A stretch of 64,000 nucleotides of DNA from a virus. The position numbers and the translations under genes were made by a program. The stretch lies in the IMG/VR virus record IMGVR_UViG_3300045971_000528, positions 42,082-106,081 of that record; one strand, given 5' to 3'. The notes beneath the pieces were generated by a model that ran no database searches, had not been told where the DNA came from, and was given only the letters and a program-made list of their open reading frames with translations. Within the stretch, counting starts at the first letter, position 1, and every line of letters begins with the position of its first letter. Below, in pieces: positions 1,428 through 44,356 of this stretch.

Positions 1428-2096
1428 TTATGCCCGGTTCCGCTCATATTGCAGCTCGTCCAGCCATGCCATGAACTCCCGATAGACCTCGATTGCTGGC
1501 TTCGGCGGCTCGAAATCCTGCAGTTCGACGATCCCGATGTTCAGCAACCGCGTCCAGTTGGTGCCACGACTCGGCATCAGGTGGTAGGCCTCGATCGTGA
1601 GGGCGTACATGTCGGCCCACTTGATGATGTCACGGGTTGTGGAATCCGGTTCTGACAGGCCGAGGGATTGCCAGATGGTTTCCATCATGCGCTGCTCGAT
1701 AGCACCGTATGCCTCCTTCATTCCCGGTAGCTGCTTCAGCGGGGTGGGTAGGTCGAGCAAGTAGGCCTCGCTGCCATCATGCACATGCGAATGAAGAAGG
1801 ACGGTACCGGTGATGTAGTGCGCAACCTCACCGTGGAAGTGGGTTTCGTTGTAGAAGCTCTGCCGAAGACCTGTCTCTTTGGGATCCTTCAAGCGCTGAA
1901 CGATCTTGGCGACTGCTGTGGAGTGTTGTCCTACCGTGTAGGGCAGGGTGGTCATGGTGTGACCTGCATACCGAGGCATGCGACTGAGTGCCCACCCCAT
2001 GTCACGATGGTCGATCTGCTCCACCTTCGGATCGAGGAGGTCGATATAGAGACCACTCACGGTCTCGATGCAGTTGGTTCCAACTGGTGTGTTCAT
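1428..2096 (-). CDS. HD-domain phosphohydrolase (YfbR-like deoxynucleotidase)
   Basis: RYAGH..YTVGQHS, HDGSEAY, WAD motifs. Confidence 0.85.
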   Translation of the reverse strand: MNTPVGTNCIETVSGLYIDLLDPKVEQIDHRDMGWALSRMPRYAGHTMTTLPYTVGQHSTAVAKIVQRLKDPKETGLRQSFYNETHFHGEVAHYITGTVLLHSHVHDGSEAYLLDLPTPLKQLPGMKEAYGAIEQRMMETIWQSLGLSEPDSTTRDIIKWADMYALTIEAYHLMPSRGTNWTRLLNIGIVELQDFEPPKPAIEVYREFMAWLDELQYERNRA

Positions 2097-2632
2097 GCCG
2101 TTCTCTTGGTTGTGGCGACTAGACGAATGTCTCCCTTGCCGCCGTAAAGCCGATGCCGGCTGTAGAGCTCCCCATCATCCCAGTAGACAGGACAGCGAAT
2201 GCTCAGGTTCTTGAAATCATGGGCCCAAATAGTGAAGAAGTCTCTTCGAACGAAACTCTCCCACAGGGCTTTCGAGTGCTTCGTGTGGGTCTTGCCTGAT
2301 GCGACCAACATGCCATCATCATTGATGACCGCGCGGTAGAGATCCTTGGCCAATCCCTGCCCACGAAATGCAGGGAAGATCCAGAGCTGCTCGACTTCCC
2401 ATGCAGTCCAGCCGGGTCGCTGCTTGAGCATGAGCCAAGCCATCGGCCTTGGGCCTTTGGATGTCTCTCGGAAGATGGCGTAGTAGACTCGAAACCCAAG
2501 CCCGCAGCAAGGTAGCTGCACCACTCCACGTTTCCCAACAAACCGATTGGGTCCTTGCTGGTGGCGACGCGTGATGATCTTGTAGGTCCATTCCCAGTAT
2601 GGACGCGTGATGCTCTGCTCGAGAATCTGCAC
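2093..2632 (-). CDS. GNAT-family acetyltransferase
   Basis: PAFRGQGLA acetyl-CoA motif. Confidence 0.75.
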   Translation of the reverse strand: MQILEQSITRPYWEWTYKIITRRHQQGPNRFVGKRGVVQLPCCGLGFRVYYAIFRETSKGPRPMAWLMLKQRPGWTAWEVEQLWIFPAFRGQGLAKDLYRAVINDDGMLVASGKTHTKHSKALWESFVRRDFFTIWAHDFKNLSIRCPVYWDDGELYSRHRLYGGKGDIRLVATTKRTA

Positions 2633-2636
2633 TAGC

Positions 2637-2846
2637 TCACCACTTGTTGATGGGGCAGGAAGCTTCGAGCAGCTTCGTCTTCAGATCGAGGAAGCAACCG
2701 CAGAGGTCGCATTGGTGTGTCATTTTGCGATAGTGCGGACATGCTTGGCAGACCTTGACACGTTCGCCCGCCAGTTCACCATCAGCCATGGGTGGCAGCT
2801 CGCCCTTCATAAGCTTGCGTGCGATGTCTTTGAGGGTCAAACTCAT
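2637..2846 (-). CDS. small Cys-rich metal-binding protein
   Basis: CxxC, CxxCGC, CP.nKW pattern. Confidence 0.7.
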   Translation of the reverse strand: MSLTLKDIARKLMKGELPPMADGELAGERVKVCQACPHYRKMTHQCDLCGCFLDLKTKLLEASCPINKW

Positions 2847-3256
2847 GAGCGCCTCTTGTTGCTGGAGAGGAGAGCTTGGAGCTCGTCCTCAGACACGTAC
2901 ACATCGTTGCCTTTGTTGTAGGCAGGCGCCACATTGAACTTCCGCTCGCGTGCAGCCAGTTCGCGAGCCAGCATCTCAGGATCCTCGGCGTACTGGAGCT
3001 CAGGTCGAGCCACAGTTTTGGTGCCACCGTGGCGGATGTACTTCGCTGCATGGTGTGGATGCAGACCTTCGCACCTGTCTGTGAGCATGCGGGGCGGGTT
3101 GCTCTTCGGCTTGATGGCCGTGATTGACGTCTGCCGAATGCCGCTCGACATGGTGCTCACAGACTGTAGCCATGCATTGTATTCGGCTTCAAGCTTCTGC
3201 CATCCCGGCTTGCGCTTCTGCTTGCCTGGTCGAGTGTGTATACGAAGTAGTCCCAT
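2843..3256 (-). CDS. conserved T4-like phage hypothetical protein
   Basis: C-terminal APAYNKG motif recalled from T4-like phage proteins. Confidence 0.6.
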   Translation of the reverse strand: MGLLRIHTRPGKQKRKPGWQKLEAEYNAWLQSVSTMSSGIRQTSITAIKPKSNPPRMLTDRCEGLHPHHAAKYIRHGGTKTVARPELQYAEDPEMLARELAARERKFNVAPAYNKGNDVYVSEDELQALLSSNKRRS

Positions 3257-4628: not shown

Positions 4629-5735
4629 TTAGCAGGCTCTTTCGTCAGGTTGCAGCATCGAGATCAGAGCACCGATGCGGGCTTGTTCGATGCCCTCACC
4701 GATTTCCTTGCCGCTCATGCCATCGGCCACGAACACGGGTGCCAGTTGAGAAGCCAGCGGTTGCGCGAGGCTGAAGCCACCCACCATTTCGCGGGCAGTG
4801 AATGTCTGCGCTGTGCCCAACTTCGCCGCGCCGTAGCTGATCAGCGTGAACAGCTCCAGGCGCTTTTCATTCTGCCAGCCGATGCGCCGCAGCAATGCAC
4901 TCAAATCGCGGGCGGTATGATTGGCTGTGCGGTTCTGGCTGATGAACTGCGCAAATGCCCAACCTTCGCTACCGCCGACCTGCATCGAGAACGCTTGATC
5001 ACTTTGCGCGATGGCTGTGAACGCCAGCACACGTTCGTCCTTGTTGAAGTTCTGGCGAACCCAACCAGCAACATCGGCGAGTCGCAAGGTGTTCATGCCG
5101 CGGAAGAAGCTGACGTGCTGGGTAACCTTCAGCTCATGCAGCATCTTGAAGAAGCGCATGCAGCCCTTGACCGTGCACGTCTTCAGCACCTTGACAATCT
5201 CGGCAGCGAAGCGCTCCCACGGCAGCTCATTCAGCTCGCCGCGTGCGACCATTTCCTGCGCGAATAACAGCGTGACGTCAGCGACCGTGAAATCCTCGAA
5301 GCGACCGTAGAAGCGAGCCAAACGAACGACGCGCAATGGGTCTTCCTTGAAGGCACTCGACACATGGCGTAGGATGCGCTTGTTGATGTCGTTGATGCCG
5401 TCGAACGGGTCGATGAACTCGCTGGTCTCTTCGTCCATGGCGATCGCATTGATCGTCAAGTCACGACGGCCCAGGTCGTCGGCCAGCGTGACATCTTCGT
5501 CGTAGTGCACCGCGAAACCGTGGTAGCCGGCCCCCGTCTTGCGCTCCGTGCGAGCGAGAGCGTATTCTTCACCCGTCGTGGGATGCAGGAAGACAGGGAA
5601 ATCGGCACCGACTTGTTCGTAGCCCATGGCCAGCATCTCTTGCGGGGATGCACCAACGACTACATAGTCACGGTCCTGGATGGAGTTGCCCATCAACAGG
5701 TCACGAACTGCGCCACCAACGAGGTATTGTTTCAT
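4629..5735 (-). CDS. cca: tRNA nucleotidyltransferase (CCA-adding enzyme)
   Basis: VGGAVRD, DxD, RRDLTINA, EDPLRVVR motifs. Confidence 0.95.
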   Translation of the reverse strand: MKQYLVGGAVRDLLMGNSIQDRDYVVVGASPQEMLAMGYEQVGADFPVFLHPTTGEEYALARTERKTGAGYHGFAVHYDEDVTLADDLGRRDLTINAIAMDEETSEFIDPFDGINDINKRILRHVSSAFKEDPLRVVRLARFYGRFEDFTVADVTLLFAQEMVARGELNELPWERFAAEIVKVLKTCTVKGCMRFFKMLHELKVTQHVSFFRGMNTLRLADVAGWVRQNFNKDERVLAFTAIAQSDQAFSMQVGGSEGWAFAQFISQNRTANHTARDLSALLRRIGWQNEKRLELFTLISYGAAKLGTAQTFTAREMVGGFSLAQPLASQLAPVFVADGMSGKEIGEGIEQARIGALISMLQPDERAC

Positions 5736-21241: not shown

Positions 21242-22030
21242 TTACTTGATGGAGCAGACCTTGGCAGCTTGGGCCATGGTAGGCCACATAGGACCTGTCA
21301 GCTTGGCACCCTTTGGCAGCGGAATGATGATCCCCGTCTGCTTCTGCACCTCAGCAATGCTAGACCTGAAGGTTTGTGGCGTGGCCTTGGAGGCTGCATG
21401 CGGGTAGATGAAGACCAATACCTCGAGGGTCTTCTGATCAACCAGCACCTTGTAGAAGGCTGTGGGAACTACCACCGCATTCTTACCAATCGTGGTAGCA
21501 CCCTTCAGGTCGTAGATGGGACCGACGTAGACAAGGATGTCATCGCCACGGCCAGCTGCCCATGCACGTGAGCGGACCTCAAGAGACTTCCATGCGGCAC
21601 GATTCAGGCCTGGGAGTTGGGGTGCCGCGTTCGACAGGACGTTGCTCTCGAGGGAGAGTTGGTCTGTGGACCGCATGTCAGCGCTGTTGGCCATGTGGCC
21701 AATGTCGTAGCCTGACTTGGCGTAGTCCTTGGTCTCAGCGCGCTTCCCAGCCGGGACAGACGGCTCGGGCTTGAAGCCAGCAGCGCGATCATCGCATCCA
21801 GTGGCTGAAGCAGGAGTCAGGGTGTAGGCGACCCATGCCGGGATCTTGGCCTTGTTGTCATGCGCAAGCGCGTAACCTTCACGACAGATAGGCGTGATGT
21901 CAGACTTGGAGACTTTGGGCTGACCGTAGGGGAGGTGAGCCTTGCAAGCATCCATTGGCATGGATGGCCGAATGCCGGCAGCTGAGGCGGTCAGTGAAAC
22001 GGCAAGAAGCAGGAGGGGCAGCAAGCGCAT
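21242..22030 (-). CDS. secreted DNA/RNA non-specific endonuclease (NucA/EndA family)
   Basis: signal peptide, YDIGH, PQ...LN..W motifs. Confidence 0.9.
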   Translation of the reverse strand: MRLLPLLLLAVSLTASAAGIRPSMPMDACKAHLPYGQPKVSKSDITPICREGYALAHDNKAKIPAWVAYTLTPASATGCDDRAAGFKPEPSVPAGKRAETKDYAKSGYDIGHMANSADMRSTDQLSLESNVLSNAAPQLPGLNRAAWKSLEVRSRAWAAGRGDDILVYVGPIYDLKGATTIGKNAVVVPTAFYKVLVDQKTLEVLVFIYPHAASKATPQTFRSSIAEVQKQTGIIIPLPKGAKLTGPMWPTMAQAAKVCSIK

Positions 22031-27322: not shown

Positions 27323-27414
27323 TGGTAGGACCGCTCGGATTCGAACCGAGATCGTGCGCTAATCTGGCGCTCATGGCTTATAAGGCCACCGCTCTACCGT
27401 TGAGCTACAGTCCC
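27323..27414 (-). tRNA. tRNA-Ile(TAT) with long variable arm
   Basis: loop CTTATAA, CCA. Confidence 0.8.
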
Positions 27415-28670: not shown

Positions 28671-29273
28671 TTAGCGCAATGAAAGGACGCCATCCTTGAA
28701 GTGGAAACCATCAGCCATATTGGCTGGTTTACGCACGAGTTCTCGAAACGTGCGCTGCTCGCCAGAAACCGCAGCGATTCTTTGCTGTCCTGACGGATGG
28801 GTTCCAGATGCACCAGTGACGCTAAGCAGCTTCGTGAGGCCGGGTAGGATATTCAAACCAGCGTCTCGAGCTATTGCGACGCCAAGAAGATCGGCATCGT
28901 ACTCGCGGTTCCAGGTTTCTTGCTCATTCTTTGGTAGCACAGAGAGATCAAGTTGATGTGAGTGGCCCAATGCGCAGTGAGCAAGCTCGTGAGCAACCGC
29001 AGCAGTGAAGGCTTCACCATCCATACCCTTGAGGAAGGTTGATGACACCTGGAGGCGGCAACCATCGGTGTACACAACAAACGGAAATCGCGGTGCTGAC
29101 GAATCTTCCTTGATGGTGAGAGTTGCCGCGGGTACTCTTGGTGCGTAGTGCGCAAGATGCTCTACTACGGTGCGGGCTTCTTCTTGAGGCATCGCCTGTA
29201 TGCACGGCACAGTGAAGGCAGACAAGAGGATGAGCAGCAATCGAGCTGCTCGGGGCTTGATTTGTCGGTCCAT
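28671..29273 (-). CDS. M48-family Zn metallopeptidase, exported
   Basis: HELAH, EYDAD, THP motifs. Confidence 0.85.
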   Translation of the reverse strand: MDRQIKPRAARLLLILLSAFTVPCIQAMPQEEARTVVEHLAHYAPRVPAATLTIKEDSSAPRFPFVVYTDGCRLQVSSTFLKGMDGEAFTAAVAHELAHCALGHSHQLDLSVLPKNEQETWNREYDADLLGVAIARDAGLNILPGLTKLLSVTGASGTHPSGQQRIAAVSGEQRTFRELVRKPANMADGFHFKDGVLSLR

Positions 29274-29485
29274 AGATGCATTATACACCAATGGGGGTCC
29301 GCGTACAGGTTACAGTGTAACAACTGCCTGCATGTTCTCGGCTGCACTTTCCTACCTTGCTCCTGGATTCGTTGAAGCGATCTACGTTCGGGCGGCCTAC
29401 GAAAGTGTATCAGCACGCCTCAAGGCATTTACAACCTAGAGAGACGGAATACGGTAGCGAACCATTTTCCGTCTCTCATTCTGTT

Positions 29486-30305: not shown

Positions 30306-30394
30306 TGGTGTTCATTGGCTGGGAATCGAACCCGTACGGACGGCATCAGTCCGCGTCTACCAACCCAGATCGCCTTAGGGACTGGCCAATGAAC
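30306..30394 (-). ncRNA. tRNA-like RNA with 10-bp acceptor stem and extra arm
   Basis: GTTCATTGGC/GCCAATGAAC + ACCA; TTCGATT loop. Confidence 0.55.
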
Positions 30395-30400
30395 GAATTG

Positions 30401-30480
30401 TGGTAGCGGGGGCGGGATTTGAACCACGCGATCTCTAGCTTATGAGGCTAGCGGGAACGGCCAGGCTTCCCTACCCCGCG
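30401..30480 (-). tRNA. tRNA-Met(CAT)
   Basis: loop CTCATAA, C1 mismatch, CCA. Confidence 0.8.
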
Positions 30481-30794
30481 TCAGATTACTTGAAGTTGAA
30501 ATGGTCCAGCAGATCTGCTGGAATCGTGTCAAAGTGAAACTCAACAACTTCCAGGCCGGTACGAAGATCACGCGTCGAATCATGGATCGACTGGCGTGGG
30601 CCACGTGGCTGAGAGAGGTTGGTCGGTGGGCGCAGATCATCTCCATGGAGAGTCGTATTCACCCAATCGCGAACACCAGCATCACGGCTGGCAGATGAAC
30701 TACCGGTCATTTTCCTGGTCCTTTCACTGTTGAAATTCATGGGGCATGCTGAGCAAAATCCCCGAGGTCCTGCTTCCGCGGCCTCATATTGTTT

Positions 30795-30880
30795 TGGAGC
30801 GGGTGATGAGAATCGAACTCACATGCGACTTGCGTCTGCCGGCTTGGAAGGCCGGTGCCCTGCCAATGGACCACACCCGC
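30795..30880 (-). tRNA. tRNA-Gly(TCC) with long variable arm
   Basis: loop CTTCCAA, U73, CCA. Confidence 0.8.
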
Positions 30881-30889
30881 GTTAGTGTT

Positions 30890-30963
30890 TGGAGCGGAAG
30901 ACCGGAATCGAACCGGCGACTAAACGATGGCAACGTCTCGAGATACCACTTCACCACATCCGC
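30890..30963 (-). tRNA. tRNA-Gly(GCC)
   Basis: cloverleaf, CCA. Confidence 0.8.
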
Positions 30964-31219
30964 ATACGGGGGAATTCCACACCCCTCTCGATGTCAAGGC
31001 TTGCTGTCAGTACGGTTTCCCGTTCTTACCATGACCAGATCCACGAGTGAGACCATGTTCTTCTTGACGTCACGGCTTTCTGTCAAGGTCGCTTCCTTCA
31101 TCCCTCTGCATTTTGAGGGCCGTCCGTACGACTTGCGGTCGTAGAAGCTAACGTGGGGTGAGGGAAGGAGTGCGTGCCTTCATTACTCCACGACCTCCCC
31201 TGGTCGTGGCCTCCGAATT

Positions 31220-31327
31220 TGGAGCGGGATAAGAGACTCGAACTCTCGACCTGAACCTTGTTCTAGACACGTCATTTCTTCGATGCCTAGAGGCAAGGTT
31301 CCGCTCTACCAACTGAGCTAATCCCGC
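31220..31327 (-). tRNA. tRNA-Gly(GCC) with 32-nt hairpin insertion in anticodon loop
   Basis: canonical body; insert at 31260-31291. Confidence 0.8.
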
Positions 31328-31640
31328 ATGGCGCTGACTAGGCTGTCACAGCGCTGTGATGCATTCACCGGCTGGGCATGGGTAACCCATTCTCCTGCAC
31401 CTTCCAGCTGAGGACAGCAGCTGAAAACTGTTCGTGCGTGGTGGCACTTTCGAACGTACCGGCCACATTGCACTAGGGACCGACTGAACTTCAGTCGGGG
31501 ATCCACCACCTTGTTCAGAAGGGAACAAGGAACCTTGATCATTGAACTCAACGACTGCACATCCTGAGAAGGAATTTAACGACTTTGTCAGCAGTCTCGC
31601 GTTATAAAGTGGGGTGTCTCGGTTACTAACCCACACGTTC

Positions 31641-31878
31641 AAAAGGGTTCAACAGGTAGGAATCGAACCTACATCTCCCAGCTCCACGCCAGGGCTCTGA
31701 CCAATATGAGCTACCGTCGAAAGGGGTTGTCTTAGCCAGGATTTCGAAACCTGGACCTCCCGGGTACACCGGGCGTGCTCCCATTACACTACAGACAAAG
31801 GGGTTTGCTTCACGTAGAGTTCGAACTACGTCCTTCCGGTAGAAATCCGGGTGTGCTTGACCTTACACCATCAGCAAA
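31641..31878 (-). ncRNA. three tandem tRNA mimics with aberrant anticodon loops and no CCA
   Basis: D and T arms intact; each ends AACCC(C)TTT. Confidence 0.65.
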
Positions 31879-43045: not shown

Positions 43046-43120
43046 TGGTGCGCCCGGCGGGAATCGAACCCGCGCCAAAGGATTTAGAATCCCCTACTCT
43101 AACCGCTGAGCTACGAGCGC
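43046..43120 (-). tRNA. amber suppressor tRNA (anticodon CTA)
   Basis: stem GGGGA/TCCTT, loop TTCTAAA, CCA; own TATAAT just upstream. Confidence 0.8.
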
Positions 43121-43430: not shown

Positions 43431-43448
43431 ACGGACCCGAAGGTCCGT
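43431..43448 (-). terminator. cUUCGg terminator after tmRNA
   Basis: ACGGACC-TTCG-GGTCCGT followed by T-rich tract. Confidence 0.7.
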
Positions 43449-43454
43449 GTCGGA

Positions 43455-43740
43455 TGACTCAGCGAACTGAGTCACCTACCGTTTGATGACAAGGACCGGG
43501 TGTCCTCGCAAAGCTTACGCCGCTAGGCGCAGTCCTTCGAAGTTAGCATCGTTTGCAGATACTTGGTTTTGCTTGATTTACGGTCATCGCCTACCGAGCG
43601 CAAGAAAAGTTACTAGTCTGTCGGTCGATTACCAGATCACCCCCATCAGAAGAACACCCGCAGATGCGCTTATGGTGGAGGTGGGGGGATTTGAACCCCC
43701 GTGTCGCCAGCATTTCTCAGTCCTCGTTTACGCTGTTATT
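43455..43740 (-). ncRNA. ssrA: circularly permuted (two-piece) tmRNA, tag ANDANFEGLRLAA
   Basis: T arm and CCA (ending 43673) precede 5' GGGGGTG (43644); G3:U wobble; tag at 43515-43556; outer ends approximate. Confidence 0.92.
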
Positions 43741-44356
43741 GGAAGCCTGGGTTCAGGCGTCCCAATTTCAAATTCTTCGTCCTCTCGTCAGTGATGGCAA
43801 GCAGAAAATTGGTAGTTGAATCATTATACCACCTTTTCCCGTACGTGCCATTCTTTTTGCACTTTTTGTTTTCGATCCATTCGCTTGACAAAATCCATCC
43901 AACAGGTTGATCACCACGAACAAACCTCCTTCGGTCGCCATCAGCATCTCGATAGATGCTCGTACCAAATGCAGAATTTGTATCGCCTTGCTGGTGGTTG
44001 ATCGATGCGTATGTGTTCTTCCGTTTAGCAACCGCTTCTGGTGTGGAAGCCTGGGCCGTGGCATATTCTTGGTTCTTCGTATTTAGTTTCCAATTAGCAG
44101 ATGTCGGCTTTTTCCAGGGTTGATTTGCAGCGACTGCCTTATGACCACCTAGTCTTTGCAGCTCATGCACTAATTCTGACTTCGAGATAATTCCTGCCAA
44201 ACCTTTCCAAGCCAACTTGTCCTCTACTCTACCGTGCGTTTCATAGAGCAGCCGGTGTGCTTCGGCGTGTTCAGCAACGGTGAGCAGTTCTATGTTGTCT
44301 GGAGAATCTGTTCCACCAGCATGTGTGGGAATTTTGTGATGACGATGTTTCAACAT
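43736..44356 (-). mobile_element. HNH homing endonuclease
   Basis: HHKIP..GG.D..DN..L...EH...H; AT-rich; TATAAATA 4 nt before ATG. Confidence 0.88.

What the first reader, a model, noticed from the sequence alone, without database searches (positions are those of the whole stretch)
31220..31327. tRNA-Gly(GCC) with a 32-nt hairpin inserted at the anticodon
Seen: removing 31260-31291 restores a canonical 76-nt tRNA-Gly. The insert forms a 9-bp stem (TCTAGGCAT/GTGTCTAGA) that extends the anticodon arm through a 2x1 internal loop. It is too short for a self-splicing intron and is not a bulge-helix-bulge. An uninterrupted Gly(GCC) lies 260 bp away. Inference: a protein-spliced or nuclease-activated tRNA, or a chargeable non-decoding mimic.
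Basis: partly seen in the sequence, partly recalled or inferred. Interest (0 to 1): 0.7.

Follow-up and report, generated by a model that had tools for sequence, protein, structure and literature searches.

The report
Hairpin mini-intron in phage glycine tRNA
A giant phage's glycine tRNA gene is split right after its anticodon by a 32-base hairpin that cannot splice itself; its shape fits cutting by a double-strand RNA nuclease and rejoining by an RNA ligase, but this is unproven and the gene may simply be dead.

Summary
Window 31220-31327 (-) is a full tRNA (Rfam 54.7 bits) with 32 extra bases (31260-31291) in the anticodon loop. A related phage contig has the same gene at the same place without the insert (loop UUGCCAA). 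This fixes the identity as Gly(GCC) and the insert site as 36/37, with 1-nt ambiguity.

The insert stacks on the anticodon stem to form a rod of about 19 bp. It is too small to self-splice and is not a bulge-helix-bulge. Unrelated hairpins sit at the same site in tRNA-Gly(GCC) of three other phage lineages and in tRNA-Thr(UGU) of two phages, and homologous inserts covary. No cellular genome showed one.

The target, L013, L092 and L100 share one geometry: 7 exon-exon bp, the last insert bases facing the anticodon, 10 bp inside the insert, and boundaries staggered by 2 nt with 3' overhangs. This is the RNase III cut pattern. The phage encodes an RNA ligase.

Best reading (0.45): an enzyme-excised mini-intron. 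Nothing is shown at the RNA level. An intact Gly(GCC) lies 256 nt away, so a tolerated dead copy remains a serious rival.

This scan has flagged the same kind of element on other DNA. In print I found only the "enigmatic" tRNA introns of Lak megaphages.

The parts
31220..31327 (-). Whole interrupted tRNA-Gly(GCC) gene, 108 nt, CCA encoded
   Evidence: Rfam RF00005 at 54.7 bits over the full model. ARAGORN with introns allowed. Cloverleaf fold.
31292..31327 (-). 5' exon, tRNA positions 1-36 (acceptor, D arm, 5' anticodon stem, U32 U33 G34 C35 C36)
   Evidence: Alignment to the uninterrupted ortholog L003:905-980.
31260..31291 (-). 32-nt hairpin insert (mini-intron or intervening sequence). It has 10 internal bp, base +1 pairs with base -3, and its last base pairs with G34.
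   Evidence: Single 32-nt gap against L003. Folds. Single copy in the contig.
31220..31259 (-). 3' exon, positions 37-76 (A37 A38, 3' anticodon stem, variable loop, T arm, acceptor, U73, CCA)
30890..30963 (-). Second, uninterrupted tRNA-Gly(GCC) with a different sequence, 256 nt downstream. It makes the interrupted copy redundant for decoding.
   Evidence: ARAGORN and Rfam at 51.7 bits. Absent at this position in L003 and in contigs of two pond/wetland runs that lie on this region at 80% likeness or more (joint 30880>30968).

Best explanation
The locus is a phage tRNA-Gly(GCC) gene carrying a 32-nt hairpin intervening sequence between C36 and A37. It is transcribed inside the minus-strand tRNA array. 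In the precursor the hairpin stacks on the anticodon stem and masks the anticodon in a rod of about 19 bp. The rod has 7 exon-exon pairs, then G34 paired with the last insert base (with C35 and C36 opposite the base before it), then 10 pairs inside the insert. The insert cannot splice itself. The most likely fate is excision by a double-strand-specific endonuclease. The inferred boundaries are staggered by 2 nt with 3' overhangs and have about 10 bp on the insert side and 7-8 bp on the tRNA side. This is the RNase III cut pattern, and it would leave 3'-OH and 5'-phosphate ends. An RNA ligase that uses such ends would then reseal the two tRNA halves, and the phage encodes a PF09414 RNA ligase. 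The product would be a normal 76-nt tRNA-Gly(GCC). Shown: the gene, the insert, its structure, the empty site in a relative, recurrence of the design in other phages, and covariation in homologous inserts. Inferred: that it is excised at all, which nuclease does it, and that the halves are religated.
For: (1) The insertion is precise and the tRNA body is intact: 54.7 bits, Gly identity set G1-C72, C2-G71, G3-C70 and U73, and CCA. Against L003 and L013 the stems differ by paired changes (27-43, 52-62, 7-66), so the cloverleaf is kept. (2) The design recurs. A metagenome scan found tRNA-Gly(GCC) with unrelated hairpins of 23 and 27 nt directly after GCC in L009/L015, L011 and L013. A viral scan found tRNA-Thr(UGU) with hairpins of 27 and 28 nt directly after UGU in L092 and L100. 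The same scan of one genome for each of 185,579 bacterial and archaeal species gave only trivial hits. (3) The hairpins are under selection. L092 and L100 have diverged so far that 4 of 5 anticodon-stem pairs changed on both sides. Their insert helix nonetheless keeps every pair, through 2 double and 2 single changes. L009 and L011 have unalignable flanks, yet the tRNA and insert are near-identical, and both insert changes keep a pair. (4) The geometry is shared. The target, L013, L092 and L100 represent three independent insert families. Each has 7 exon-exon bp and 10 bp inside the insert, insert base +1 pairs with base -3, and the last 1-2 insert bases pair with anticodon bases. Arm z-scores are -5.3 to -6.3. 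(5) A ligase is present: PF09414 at C1:29237-30334, 4e-25. The phage also encodes a CCA-adding enzyme and Ro60. (6) Precedents in print: hairpin-shaped intervening sequences of 23S rRNA are excised by RNase III (PMC8708148), and Lak megaphages carry unexplained tRNA introns (PMC6784885).
Against: There is no RNA-level evidence of any kind. Excision, the nuclease and the ligation are all inferred. At the putative cut site the target has a C-A mismatch plus an extra C rather than continuous helix, and internal loops can limit RNase III to a single-strand cut (my own knowledge of T7 R1.1-type sites). L009/L011 do not fit the geometry: the upper stem is 6 bp, there is a 2x4 loop, and base +1 pairs with base -6. 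Most other enlarged anticodon loops in the viral scan show no such geometry when a 36/37 site is assumed. PF09414 ligases are common in jumbo phages and also occur in the contig whose Gly gene is uninterrupted, so the ligase is not specific evidence. An intact Gly(GCC) lies 256 nt away. It is missing at that spot in L003 and in run contigs that lie on this region. This would fit compensation for a dead gene. Only about 29% of the genome is available.
Confidence: 0.45

Rival explanations
1. Dead or selfish insertion. A short palindromic sequence landed in a redundant tRNA-Gly(GCC) copy, and the RNA is never repaired. The gene is a pseudo-tRNA, or an IVS-like element cut without religation. It is tolerated because the intact Gly(GCC) 256 nt away does the decoding.
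For: The only relative found has the gene uninterrupted. This insert is single-copy, and no other contig with it was found. An intact isoacceptor accompanies the interrupted copy here, in L011 and in L100. The extra intact copy is absent at that position in L003 and in run contigs laid on the region. No splicing endonuclease, RtcB or RNase III gene occurs in the 106 kb.
Against: The tRNA body keeps every canonical feature and scores as high as its neighbours. Independent inserts converge on one geometry. Homologous inserts persist across deep divergence with compensatory changes. Decaying pseudogenes are not expected to do this.
Confidence: 0.25
2. Unspliced functional RNA. The 108-nt molecule is itself the product. 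It is a non-decoding tRNA look-alike with a rod in place of the anticodon loop. It could act as a decoy or inhibitor for an anticodon nuclease, as a partner of the phage Ro60, or as a chargeable glycine carrier.
For: The acceptor end, U73 and CCA are intact, and C35/C36 sit exposed in an internal loop. The phage encodes Ro60 and other tRNA-like RNAs with odd anticodon regions. An intact isoacceptor is present wherever enough flanking DNA was held to look (target, L011, L100), as expected if the interrupted copy has another job.
Against: Exposure of C35/C36 is not conserved. In L013, L092 and L100 the anticodon bases are paired. The motif UGGUUAUC, shared by the two other tRNA-like RNAs looked at (C1 18239-18363 and L003:8558-8693), is absent from this RNA. 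The GlyRS-like gene beside L009's copy belongs to a family spread over huge phages and not tied to interrupted tRNA-Gly.
Confidence: 0.12
3. DNA-level role. The insert breaks the recognition site of a homing endonuclease that targets the conserved anticodon region of the tRNA-Gly(GCC) gene, and so makes the carrier genome immune. This resembles collaborative homing, with a mini-insert in place of a group I intron. In this phage it would be a relic, or it would protect against an endonuclease encoded elsewhere. This reading does not exclude RNA-level excision.
For: An HNH endonuclease gene lies directly upstream, on the same strand, of the interrupted tRNA-Gly in all three other lineages. In L009 it is 182 nt away, in L011 127 nt and in L013 44 nt. 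The L013 HNH has a 55%-identical homolog in this phage at C1:4989-5537. Free-standing endonucleases in phage tRNA clusters and collaborative homing are described in PMC2988022.
Against: No endonuclease gene lies next to the target. The ORF at 28671-29291 is an M48-type peptidase, and the contig has only two HNH genes, both far away. None of 10 ORFs flanking the interrupted tRNAs of six other loci has an HNH domain. A purely DNA-level role does not explain covariation in the RNA helix.
Confidence: 0.1
4. Archaeal/eukaryal-type splicing. A tRNA splicing endonuclease cuts the precursor and an RtcB-type ligase joins the 2',3'-cyclic phosphate and 5'-OH ends.
For: The insert is short, sits next to the anticodon and pairs with it, as in eukaryotic pre-tRNAs (PMC4090602).
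Against: There is no bulge-helix-bulge. The site is 36/37, not 37/38. No PF01974 endonuclease and no RtcB occur in the contig. The host is bacterial, because the phage carries a tmRNA.
Confidence: 0.03

Closest known systems
'Enigmatic' introns in tRNA genes of Lak megaphages (Devoto et al. 2019, PMC6784885)
   Same: Both are inserts in the anticodon loops of tRNA genes in the arrays of very large phages. Both are present or absent among relatives, have no recognisable self-splicing core and have no known mechanism.
   Different: The one Lak example I read is much longer (a 93-nt insert in tRNA-Tyr). No common hairpin geometry, site rule or processing route was described. The host and phage lineage differ (gut Prevotella phages at 26% GC, against a pond phage).
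RNase III-excised intervening sequences (IVS) of bacterial 23S rRNA (Burgin et al. 1990; reviewed in PMC8708148)
   Same: Both are hairpin-shaped extra sequences inserted at the tip of a native helix of a stable RNA. Both are patchy among relatives. They form an extended duplex that a dsRNA nuclease can remove.
   Different: IVS are 100-200 nt and lie in rRNA, and the fragments are not religated. A tRNA cut in its anticodon loop must be resealed to decode, so a ligation step would be needed here. Excision is not shown here.
Protein-spliced tRNA introns of archaea and eukaryotes (BHB motif, splicing endonuclease, RtcB or Trl1; PMC4090602)
   Same: Both are short, lie beside the anticodon, pair with the anticodon and need proteins for removal.
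   Different: There is no 3-4-3 bulge-helix-bulge. The site is 36/37 rather than 37/38. The host is bacterial, and no endonuclease or RtcB gene was found.
Group I introns in bacterial and phage tRNA genes (PMC3984707)
   Same: They interrupt anticodon loops of bacterial-type tRNA genes, and some are linked to homing endonucleases.
   Different: Group I introns need a catalytic core of roughly 200 nt or more. This insert is 32 nt and matches no Rfam family.
Bacterial Y RNAs / YrlA tRNA mimics bound by Ro60
   Same: The phage encodes Ro60, and the RNA is tRNA-shaped with a helix in place of a readable anticodon loop.
   Different: By my own knowledge of the family, YrlA is closed at the acceptor end and opens at the Ro-binding stem. 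This RNA has an ordinary open acceptor stem with CCA, and it lacks the UGGUUAUC motif shared by the other tRNA-like RNAs looked at.

Membership tests
tRNA (Rfam RF00005), glycine acceptor | Full cloverleaf match above the gathering score | tested here: met
   54.7 bits against a 29-bit cut-off, model positions 1-71.
tRNA (Rfam RF00005), glycine acceptor | Glycine identity set: G1-C72, C2-G71, G3-C70, U73, C35, C36 (E. coli GlyRS identity, from my own knowledge) | tested here: met
   All are present in the sequence. The uninterrupted ortholog reads UUGCCAA.
Group I intron | Catalytic core (P3-P9) of about 200 nt or more, recognisable by a covariance model | tested here: not met
   The insert is 32 nt. 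No Rfam match up to E=10 in 30950-31660 other than the tRNA and two chance snoRNA hits.
Archaeal/eukaryal protein-spliced tRNA intron | Bulge-helix-bulge (3-nt bulge, 4-bp helix, 3-nt bulge) or a relaxed form at the splice sites | tested here: not met
   The MFE shows a 2x1 internal loop and a central helix of 1-2 bp, with no 3-nt bulges.
Archaeal/eukaryal protein-spliced tRNA intron | Canonical site 37/38 | tested here: not met
   The gap against L003 lies at 36/37 or 35/36. A 37/38 site would give U37.
Archaeal/eukaryal protein-spliced tRNA intron | tRNA splicing endonuclease (PF01974) and an RtcB- or Trl1-type ligase available | tested here: inconclusive
   None in the 106-kb contig, but only about 29% of the genome is held.
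Huge-phage 'enigmatic' tRNA introns (Lak type) | Non-self-splicing insert in the anticodon loop of a tRNA gene of a large phage, absent from the same gene in relatives | tested here: met
   The contig is a fragment of a large phage (106 kb at 29% completeness, at least 53 tRNA genes). L003 has the empty site.
RNase III-processed intervening sequence | Extended duplex of about two helical turns around the excision points | tested here: met
   7 + 1 + 10 bp with one 2x1 loop and one bulge. L013, L092 and L100 have 7 + 2 + 10 bp.
RNase III-processed intervening sequence | Cuts staggered by 2 nt leaving 3' overhangs | tested here: inconclusive
   The boundaries inferred from the empty site give a 2-nt 3' tail on the insert (base +1 pairs with base -3). 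The exon side has 3 unpaired bases, and the cuts themselves are not observed.
RNase III-processed intervening sequence | Excision depends on RNase III | not testable with these tools
   No RNA run holds the stretch.
Y RNA / YrlA | Ro60-binding helix formed by the RNA's own 5' and 3' ends, with the tRNA-like domain closed at the acceptor (from my own knowledge) | tested here: not met
   The ends are an ordinary acceptor stem with CCA.

The most novel reading that the evidence does not exclude
Phages of bacteria splice some of their tRNAs by a route not described in print that I could find. A hairpin mini-intron placed right after the anticodon turns the anticodon arm into a two-turn duplex. Host RNase III, or a similar dsRNA nuclease, cuts the hairpin out with 2-nt staggered ends. 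A phage RNA ligase that uses 3'-OH and 5'-phosphate ends then reseals the anticodon loop. Until that happens the anticodon is masked.
Probability: 0.27. Interest if true: 0.85.

Novelty: new variant of a known kind. Interest (0 to 1): 0.62.

Why it matters
As far as I know, the only tRNA introns accepted for bacteria and their viruses are self-splicing ones, and protein-dependent tRNA splicing is taken as a trait of archaea and eukaryotes. A 32-nt hairpin cannot splice itself. If this tRNA is made functional, there must be an enzyme-driven cut-and-rejoin route in a bacterial setting. That would also give a natural substrate to phage RNA ligases, whose natural targets, to my knowledge, are mostly unknown. 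The shared geometry gives concrete cut sites to test, C36|U+1 and C-1|A37. If the RNA is instead never repaired, the element is a tRNA counterpart of the rRNA intervening sequences. Masked tRNA copies in phage arrays would then need another explanation, such as a decoy, a reserve copy or endonuclease immunity.

Tried and rejected
- **Exact-pattern scans for this insert or close variants.** IMG/VR gave none. A looser Gly pattern hit only two non-tRNA loci, L028 and L029.
- **Marker scan for clade members.** The odd Gly(UCC) tRNA found only the L003 contig again.
- **Relatives through neighbouring proteins.**
  - The nuclease at 21242-22030 found L003 and L004 at about 44% identity.
  - The M48-like protein at 28671-29291 has no homolog in 5.8 billion proteins.
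The closer relatives hinted at in pond runs could therefore not be fetched.
- **Sequencing runs.** No RNA holder is listed.
- **Laying DNA contigs of four runs.** This was noisy because bacterial tRNAs pile up on the stretch.
  - One contig in X2 skips exactly 31260-31291, but only 29 bases flank the joint, so its origin is unknown.
  - Contigs stop near the insert boundary, and I could not interpret this.
- **GlyRS-like lead.**
  - L009 has a 243-aa GlyRS-like catalytic core 17 nt after its interrupted tRNA.
  - Its family has 1780 members with E of 1e-5 or better. In 42 IMG/VR loci it is never next to an interrupted tRNA-Gly, and in 8 it lies within 2.5 kb of a tRNA(CUA). I rejected it as a specific partner.
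- **ARAGORN intron calls in those loci.** Most were not backed by Rfam. Only L062:3747-3855 was.
- **Val(AAC) reading by ARAGORN.** I rejected it on three grounds: the ortholog reads GCC, the body has glycine identity, and that register would give 5' overhangs.
- **Insert as a repeat or mobile element.** There is no second copy in the contig.
- **Phage RNase III, RtcB, Rnl1 and splicing endonuclease.** None is present in the contig, which is a fragment. The Rnl1 model rang in no control genome either.
- **Promoters and terminators.** None lies beside the gene.
- **RNA ligase against solved structures.** There was no sequence match.

Full report
**Setting.** The window is the right-hand 64 kb of a 106-kb IMG/VR virus record. 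CheckV puts the record at about 29% complete, so it is a fragment of a very large phage.
- The contig holds at least 53 tRNA genes: 53 Rfam matches, and 58 ARAGORN calls with introns allowed. All are on the minus strand.
- It also carries a tmRNA, a CCA-adding enzyme and NAD-salvage genes, a Ro60/TROVE gene and a PF09414 RNA ligase.
- The tmRNA points to a bacterial host.
- No sigma-70-like promoter or intrinsic terminator flanks the target, so it probably rides on the array transcript.

- Rfam's tRNA model matches 31223-31327 (-) end to end at 54.7 bits, with 36 unaligned bases in the anticodon loop where 4 are expected.
- ARAGORN finds the gene only when introns are allowed, and reports a 32-nt intron.
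- The MFE is a cloverleaf whose anticodon arm continues into the insert:
  - 8 bp, made of 5 anticodon-stem pairs plus U32-A38, U33-A37 and G34 with the last insert base;
  - a 2x1 internal loop, C35 C36 opposite A;
  - then 8 bp, a bulged U and 2 bp, closed by a 9-nt loop.
- The arm has z about -5, and none of 200 shuffles folds as well.
- The insert is single-copy in the contig. It matches no Rfam family.

**Identity and insertion site.**
- The nuclease gene at 21242-22030 led to one syntenic relative, L003, at 44% protein identity.
- Its array has the same order: Pro(UGG), Gly(GCC), then an 86-nt Gly(UCC).
- L003:905-980 is the ortholog of the target, and it is uninterrupted. The pairwise alignment shows one clean 32-nt gap and a loop reading UUGCCAA.
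- This settles three points:
  - The tRNA is Gly(GCC), not the Val(AAC) that ARAGORN's register gives.
  - The insert lies at 36/37, or at 35/36 because of one ambiguous C. It is not at the archaeal/eukaryal 37/38 site.
  - The insert was gained or lost within this phage group.
- The body carries the glycine identity set G1-C72, C2-G71, G3-C70 and U73. This assignment rests on my own knowledge of E. coli GlyRS.
- Against L003 and L013, pairs 27-43, 52-62 and 7-66 differ by paired substitutions, so the cloverleaf is preserved.

**Recurrence elsewhere.**
- One metagenome scan asked for this D arm, CCUUGCC, 12-42 bases, then AAGG. It returned 8 contigs.
  - Four are duplications or assembly artefacts.
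  - Four are real tRNA-Gly(GCC) genes with a hairpin directly after GCC: L009 and L015 (the same phage, 23 nt), L011 (the same insert with two changes) and L013 (27 nt, unrelated sequence).
- The pattern itself fixed the site, so site recurrence is partly by design. The existence of the hairpins is not.
- L009 and L011 have unalignable flanks, but the tRNA plus insert is nearly identical. Both insert changes turn G-U pairs into Watson-Crick pairs.
- L011 and L009 are phage-like: they carry tRNA clusters, PhoH, SLT and Thg1-like genes.
- L013 shares a Pth2-like gene and a 55%-identical HNH gene with this phage.
- The same pattern over one genome for each of 185,579 bacterial and archaeal species gave 11 hits, all trivial.
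- A broader scan of IMG/VR (same D arm, 30-60 bases, same T arm) gave 62 loci.
  - About a third are giant-virus tRNA-Tyr or tRNA-Asn genes with eukaryote-style introns.
  - About 25 are distinct phage-like tRNAs with enlarged anticodon loops. The group is structurally mixed.
- Two of these, L092 and L100, are tRNA-Thr(UGU) genes, with a GCUG acceptor, A73 and CCA. Each has a hairpin of 27 or 28 nt directly after U36.
- L092 and L100 have diverged so far that 4 of 5 anticodon-stem pairs and 2 acceptor pairs changed on both sides. The insert helix still keeps every pair, with 2 double and 2 single changes. Such inserts are therefore old and maintained, not passing damage.

**A shared geometry.** One search compared the arms, taking the boundaries from the empty-site logic.
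- The target, L013, L092 and L100 represent three independent insert families in two tRNA species. Each shows:
  - 7 exon-exon pairs;
  - the last one or two insert bases paired with anticodon bases;
  - insert base +1 paired with base -3;
  - exactly 10 pairs inside the insert.
- The arm z-scores are -5.3 to -6.3.
- The rod is about 19 bp. The two exon-insert boundaries are staggered by 2 nt with 3' overhangs, with 10 bp on the insert side and 7-8 bp on the tRNA side.
- This is the product geometry of bacterial RNase III (my own knowledge). RNase III is known to excise hairpin-shaped intervening sequences from 23S rRNA (PMC8708148).
- RNase III leaves 3'-OH and 5'-phosphate ends. Those are the ends used by PF09414-type ligases (PMC7824862), and the phage encodes one.
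- This is the basis for the proposed cut-and-reseal route. It is inference throughout.

**What weakens the proposal.**
- The target has a C-A mismatch plus an extra C at the presumed cut site.
- L009/L011 do not fit: the upper stem is 6 bp, and base +1 pairs with base -6.
- Most other enlarged loops show no such geometry if a 36/37 site is assumed.
- The ligase family is common in jumbo phages. It also occurs in the L003 contig, whose Gly gene is intact.
- No phage RNase III, RtcB or splicing endonuclease lies in the 106 kb.
- Redundancy:
  - An intact but differently sequenced Gly(GCC) lies 256 nt downstream.
  - It is missing at that spot in L003 and in run contigs of X2 and X4 that lie on this region.
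  - Intact isoacceptors also accompany the interrupted genes in L011 and L100.
  - This fits a tolerated dead copy, or a copy with a job other than decoding.

**Other readings tested.**
- Homing endonuclease.
  - An HNH gene lies directly upstream, on the same strand, of the interrupted tRNA-Gly in L009, L011 and L013. This recalls collaborative homing (PMC2988022).
  - But no such gene flanks the target.
  - None of 10 ORFs flanking the interrupted tRNAs of six other loci has an HNH domain.
  - I keep it as a minor reading that does not exclude RNA-level excision.
- Chargeable mimic.
  - A 243-aa GlyRS-like core follows L009's gene.
  - Its family has 1780 members with E of 1e-5 or better. 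In 42 IMG/VR loci it is never beside an interrupted tRNA-Gly.
  - The exposed C35/C36 is not conserved.
- Archaeal-type splicing fails on motif, on site and on enzymes.

**Literature and the scan's own notes.**
- The only printed precedent I found is the set of "enigmatic" tRNA introns of Lak megaphages. They are longer and have no proposed mechanism (PMC6784885).
- Two further full-text searches found no description of short hairpin introns in phage tRNAs.
- After I had derived the geometry, the scan's notebook showed that other agents had reported hairpin mini-introns on other DNA, in phage tRNA-Gly, Thr, Arg and Leu. Several proposed the same RNase III plus ligase idea.
- Those are unchecked AI notes and do not count as independent evidence. 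They do show that this kind of element is recurrent in this scan.

**Verdict.**
- The feature is real, and it belongs to a recurrent class of hairpin inserts in phage tRNA anticodon loops that is barely described in print.
- Confidence by reading:

| Reading | Confidence |
|---|---|
| Enzyme-excised mini-intron | 0.45 |
| Tolerated dead or selfish insert | 0.25 |
| Unspliced functional mimic | 0.12 |
| Endonuclease-immunity insert (can overlap with the others) | 0.10 |
| Archaeal-type splicing | 0.03 |

- No RNA-level data could be obtained.

Noticed in passing
window 31338-31540 (-), directly upstream of the target: A structured non-coding element of about 190 nt is conserved with L003:668-872, far above the 44% identity of the neighbouring protein. 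Four predicted pairs changed on both sides between just two sequences. It contains GGUUACC. It matches no Rfam family, and its function is unknown.
   Followed up: partly
window 27323-27414 (-): A 92-nt tRNA-Ile(UAU) has an extra variable-arm hairpin (GCGC / 7-nt loop CAGAUUA / GCGC) that displays GAU like a second anticodon loop. This matches the five-arm design noted elsewhere in this scan.
   Followed up: partly
window 30795-30880 (-) and 30401-30480 (-); C1 21852-21940, 23369-23457, 23556-23650, 19860-19942 (outside the window): Many class I tRNAs of this phage have long variable arms or loops: Gly-UCC 86 nt, Met 80 and 83 nt, Glu 89 nt, Gln 89 nt, Asn 95 nt. The Gly(UCC) form is shared with L003.
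   Followed up: no
C1 18239-18363 (-) (outside the window) and L003:8558-8693: Two tRNA-like genes have acceptor, D and T arms and CCA, but carry a large insert in the anticodon/variable region. They share the motif UGGUUAUC. They differ from the target's simple hairpin and may be cargo of the phage Ro60.
   Followed up: partly
C1 ~2056-2934 (-), outside the window; window 4629-5735 (-); C1 29237-30334 (-): The phage carries an RNA-maintenance toolkit: Ro60/TROVE, a CCA-adding enzyme, and a 365-aa PF09414 RNA ligase with an unassigned 180-aa N-terminal half and no sequence match in the PDB.
   Followed up: partly
L009:1870-2601 and loci L030-L071: A family of stand-alone class II aaRS catalytic cores of about 245 aa, GlyRS-like with weak PylRS similarity, is widespread in huge phages (contigs up to 561 kb). 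It has 1780 members with E of 1e-5 or better. In 8 of 42 loci a tRNA(CUA) amber suppressor lies within 2.5 kb upstream. It may be an anticodon-blind charging enzyme.
   Followed up: partly
L003:1231-1319: An 89-nt tRNA-like gene follows Gly(UCC). ARAGORN reads it with a 4-base anticodon (gagt). Rfam scores it at 46 bits.
   Followed up: no
L062:3747-3855: Another huge-phage tRNA (Rfam 38 bits) has a hairpin of about 36 nt in its anticodon loop.
   Followed up: partly
window 30387-30753 and 30881-30967: Contigs from the pond run X2 and the wetland run X4 (X4 for the first stretch, both for the second) that lie on this region at 80% likeness or more lack these two stretches. The stretches hold an 84-aa ORF and the second Gly(GCC). 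So the array is variable among related phages.
   Followed up: no
window 43736-44356 (-): An HNH-domain ORF overlaps or abuts the tmRNA gene (43432-43785) and lies near the tRNA(CUA) at 43046-43120.
   Followed up: no
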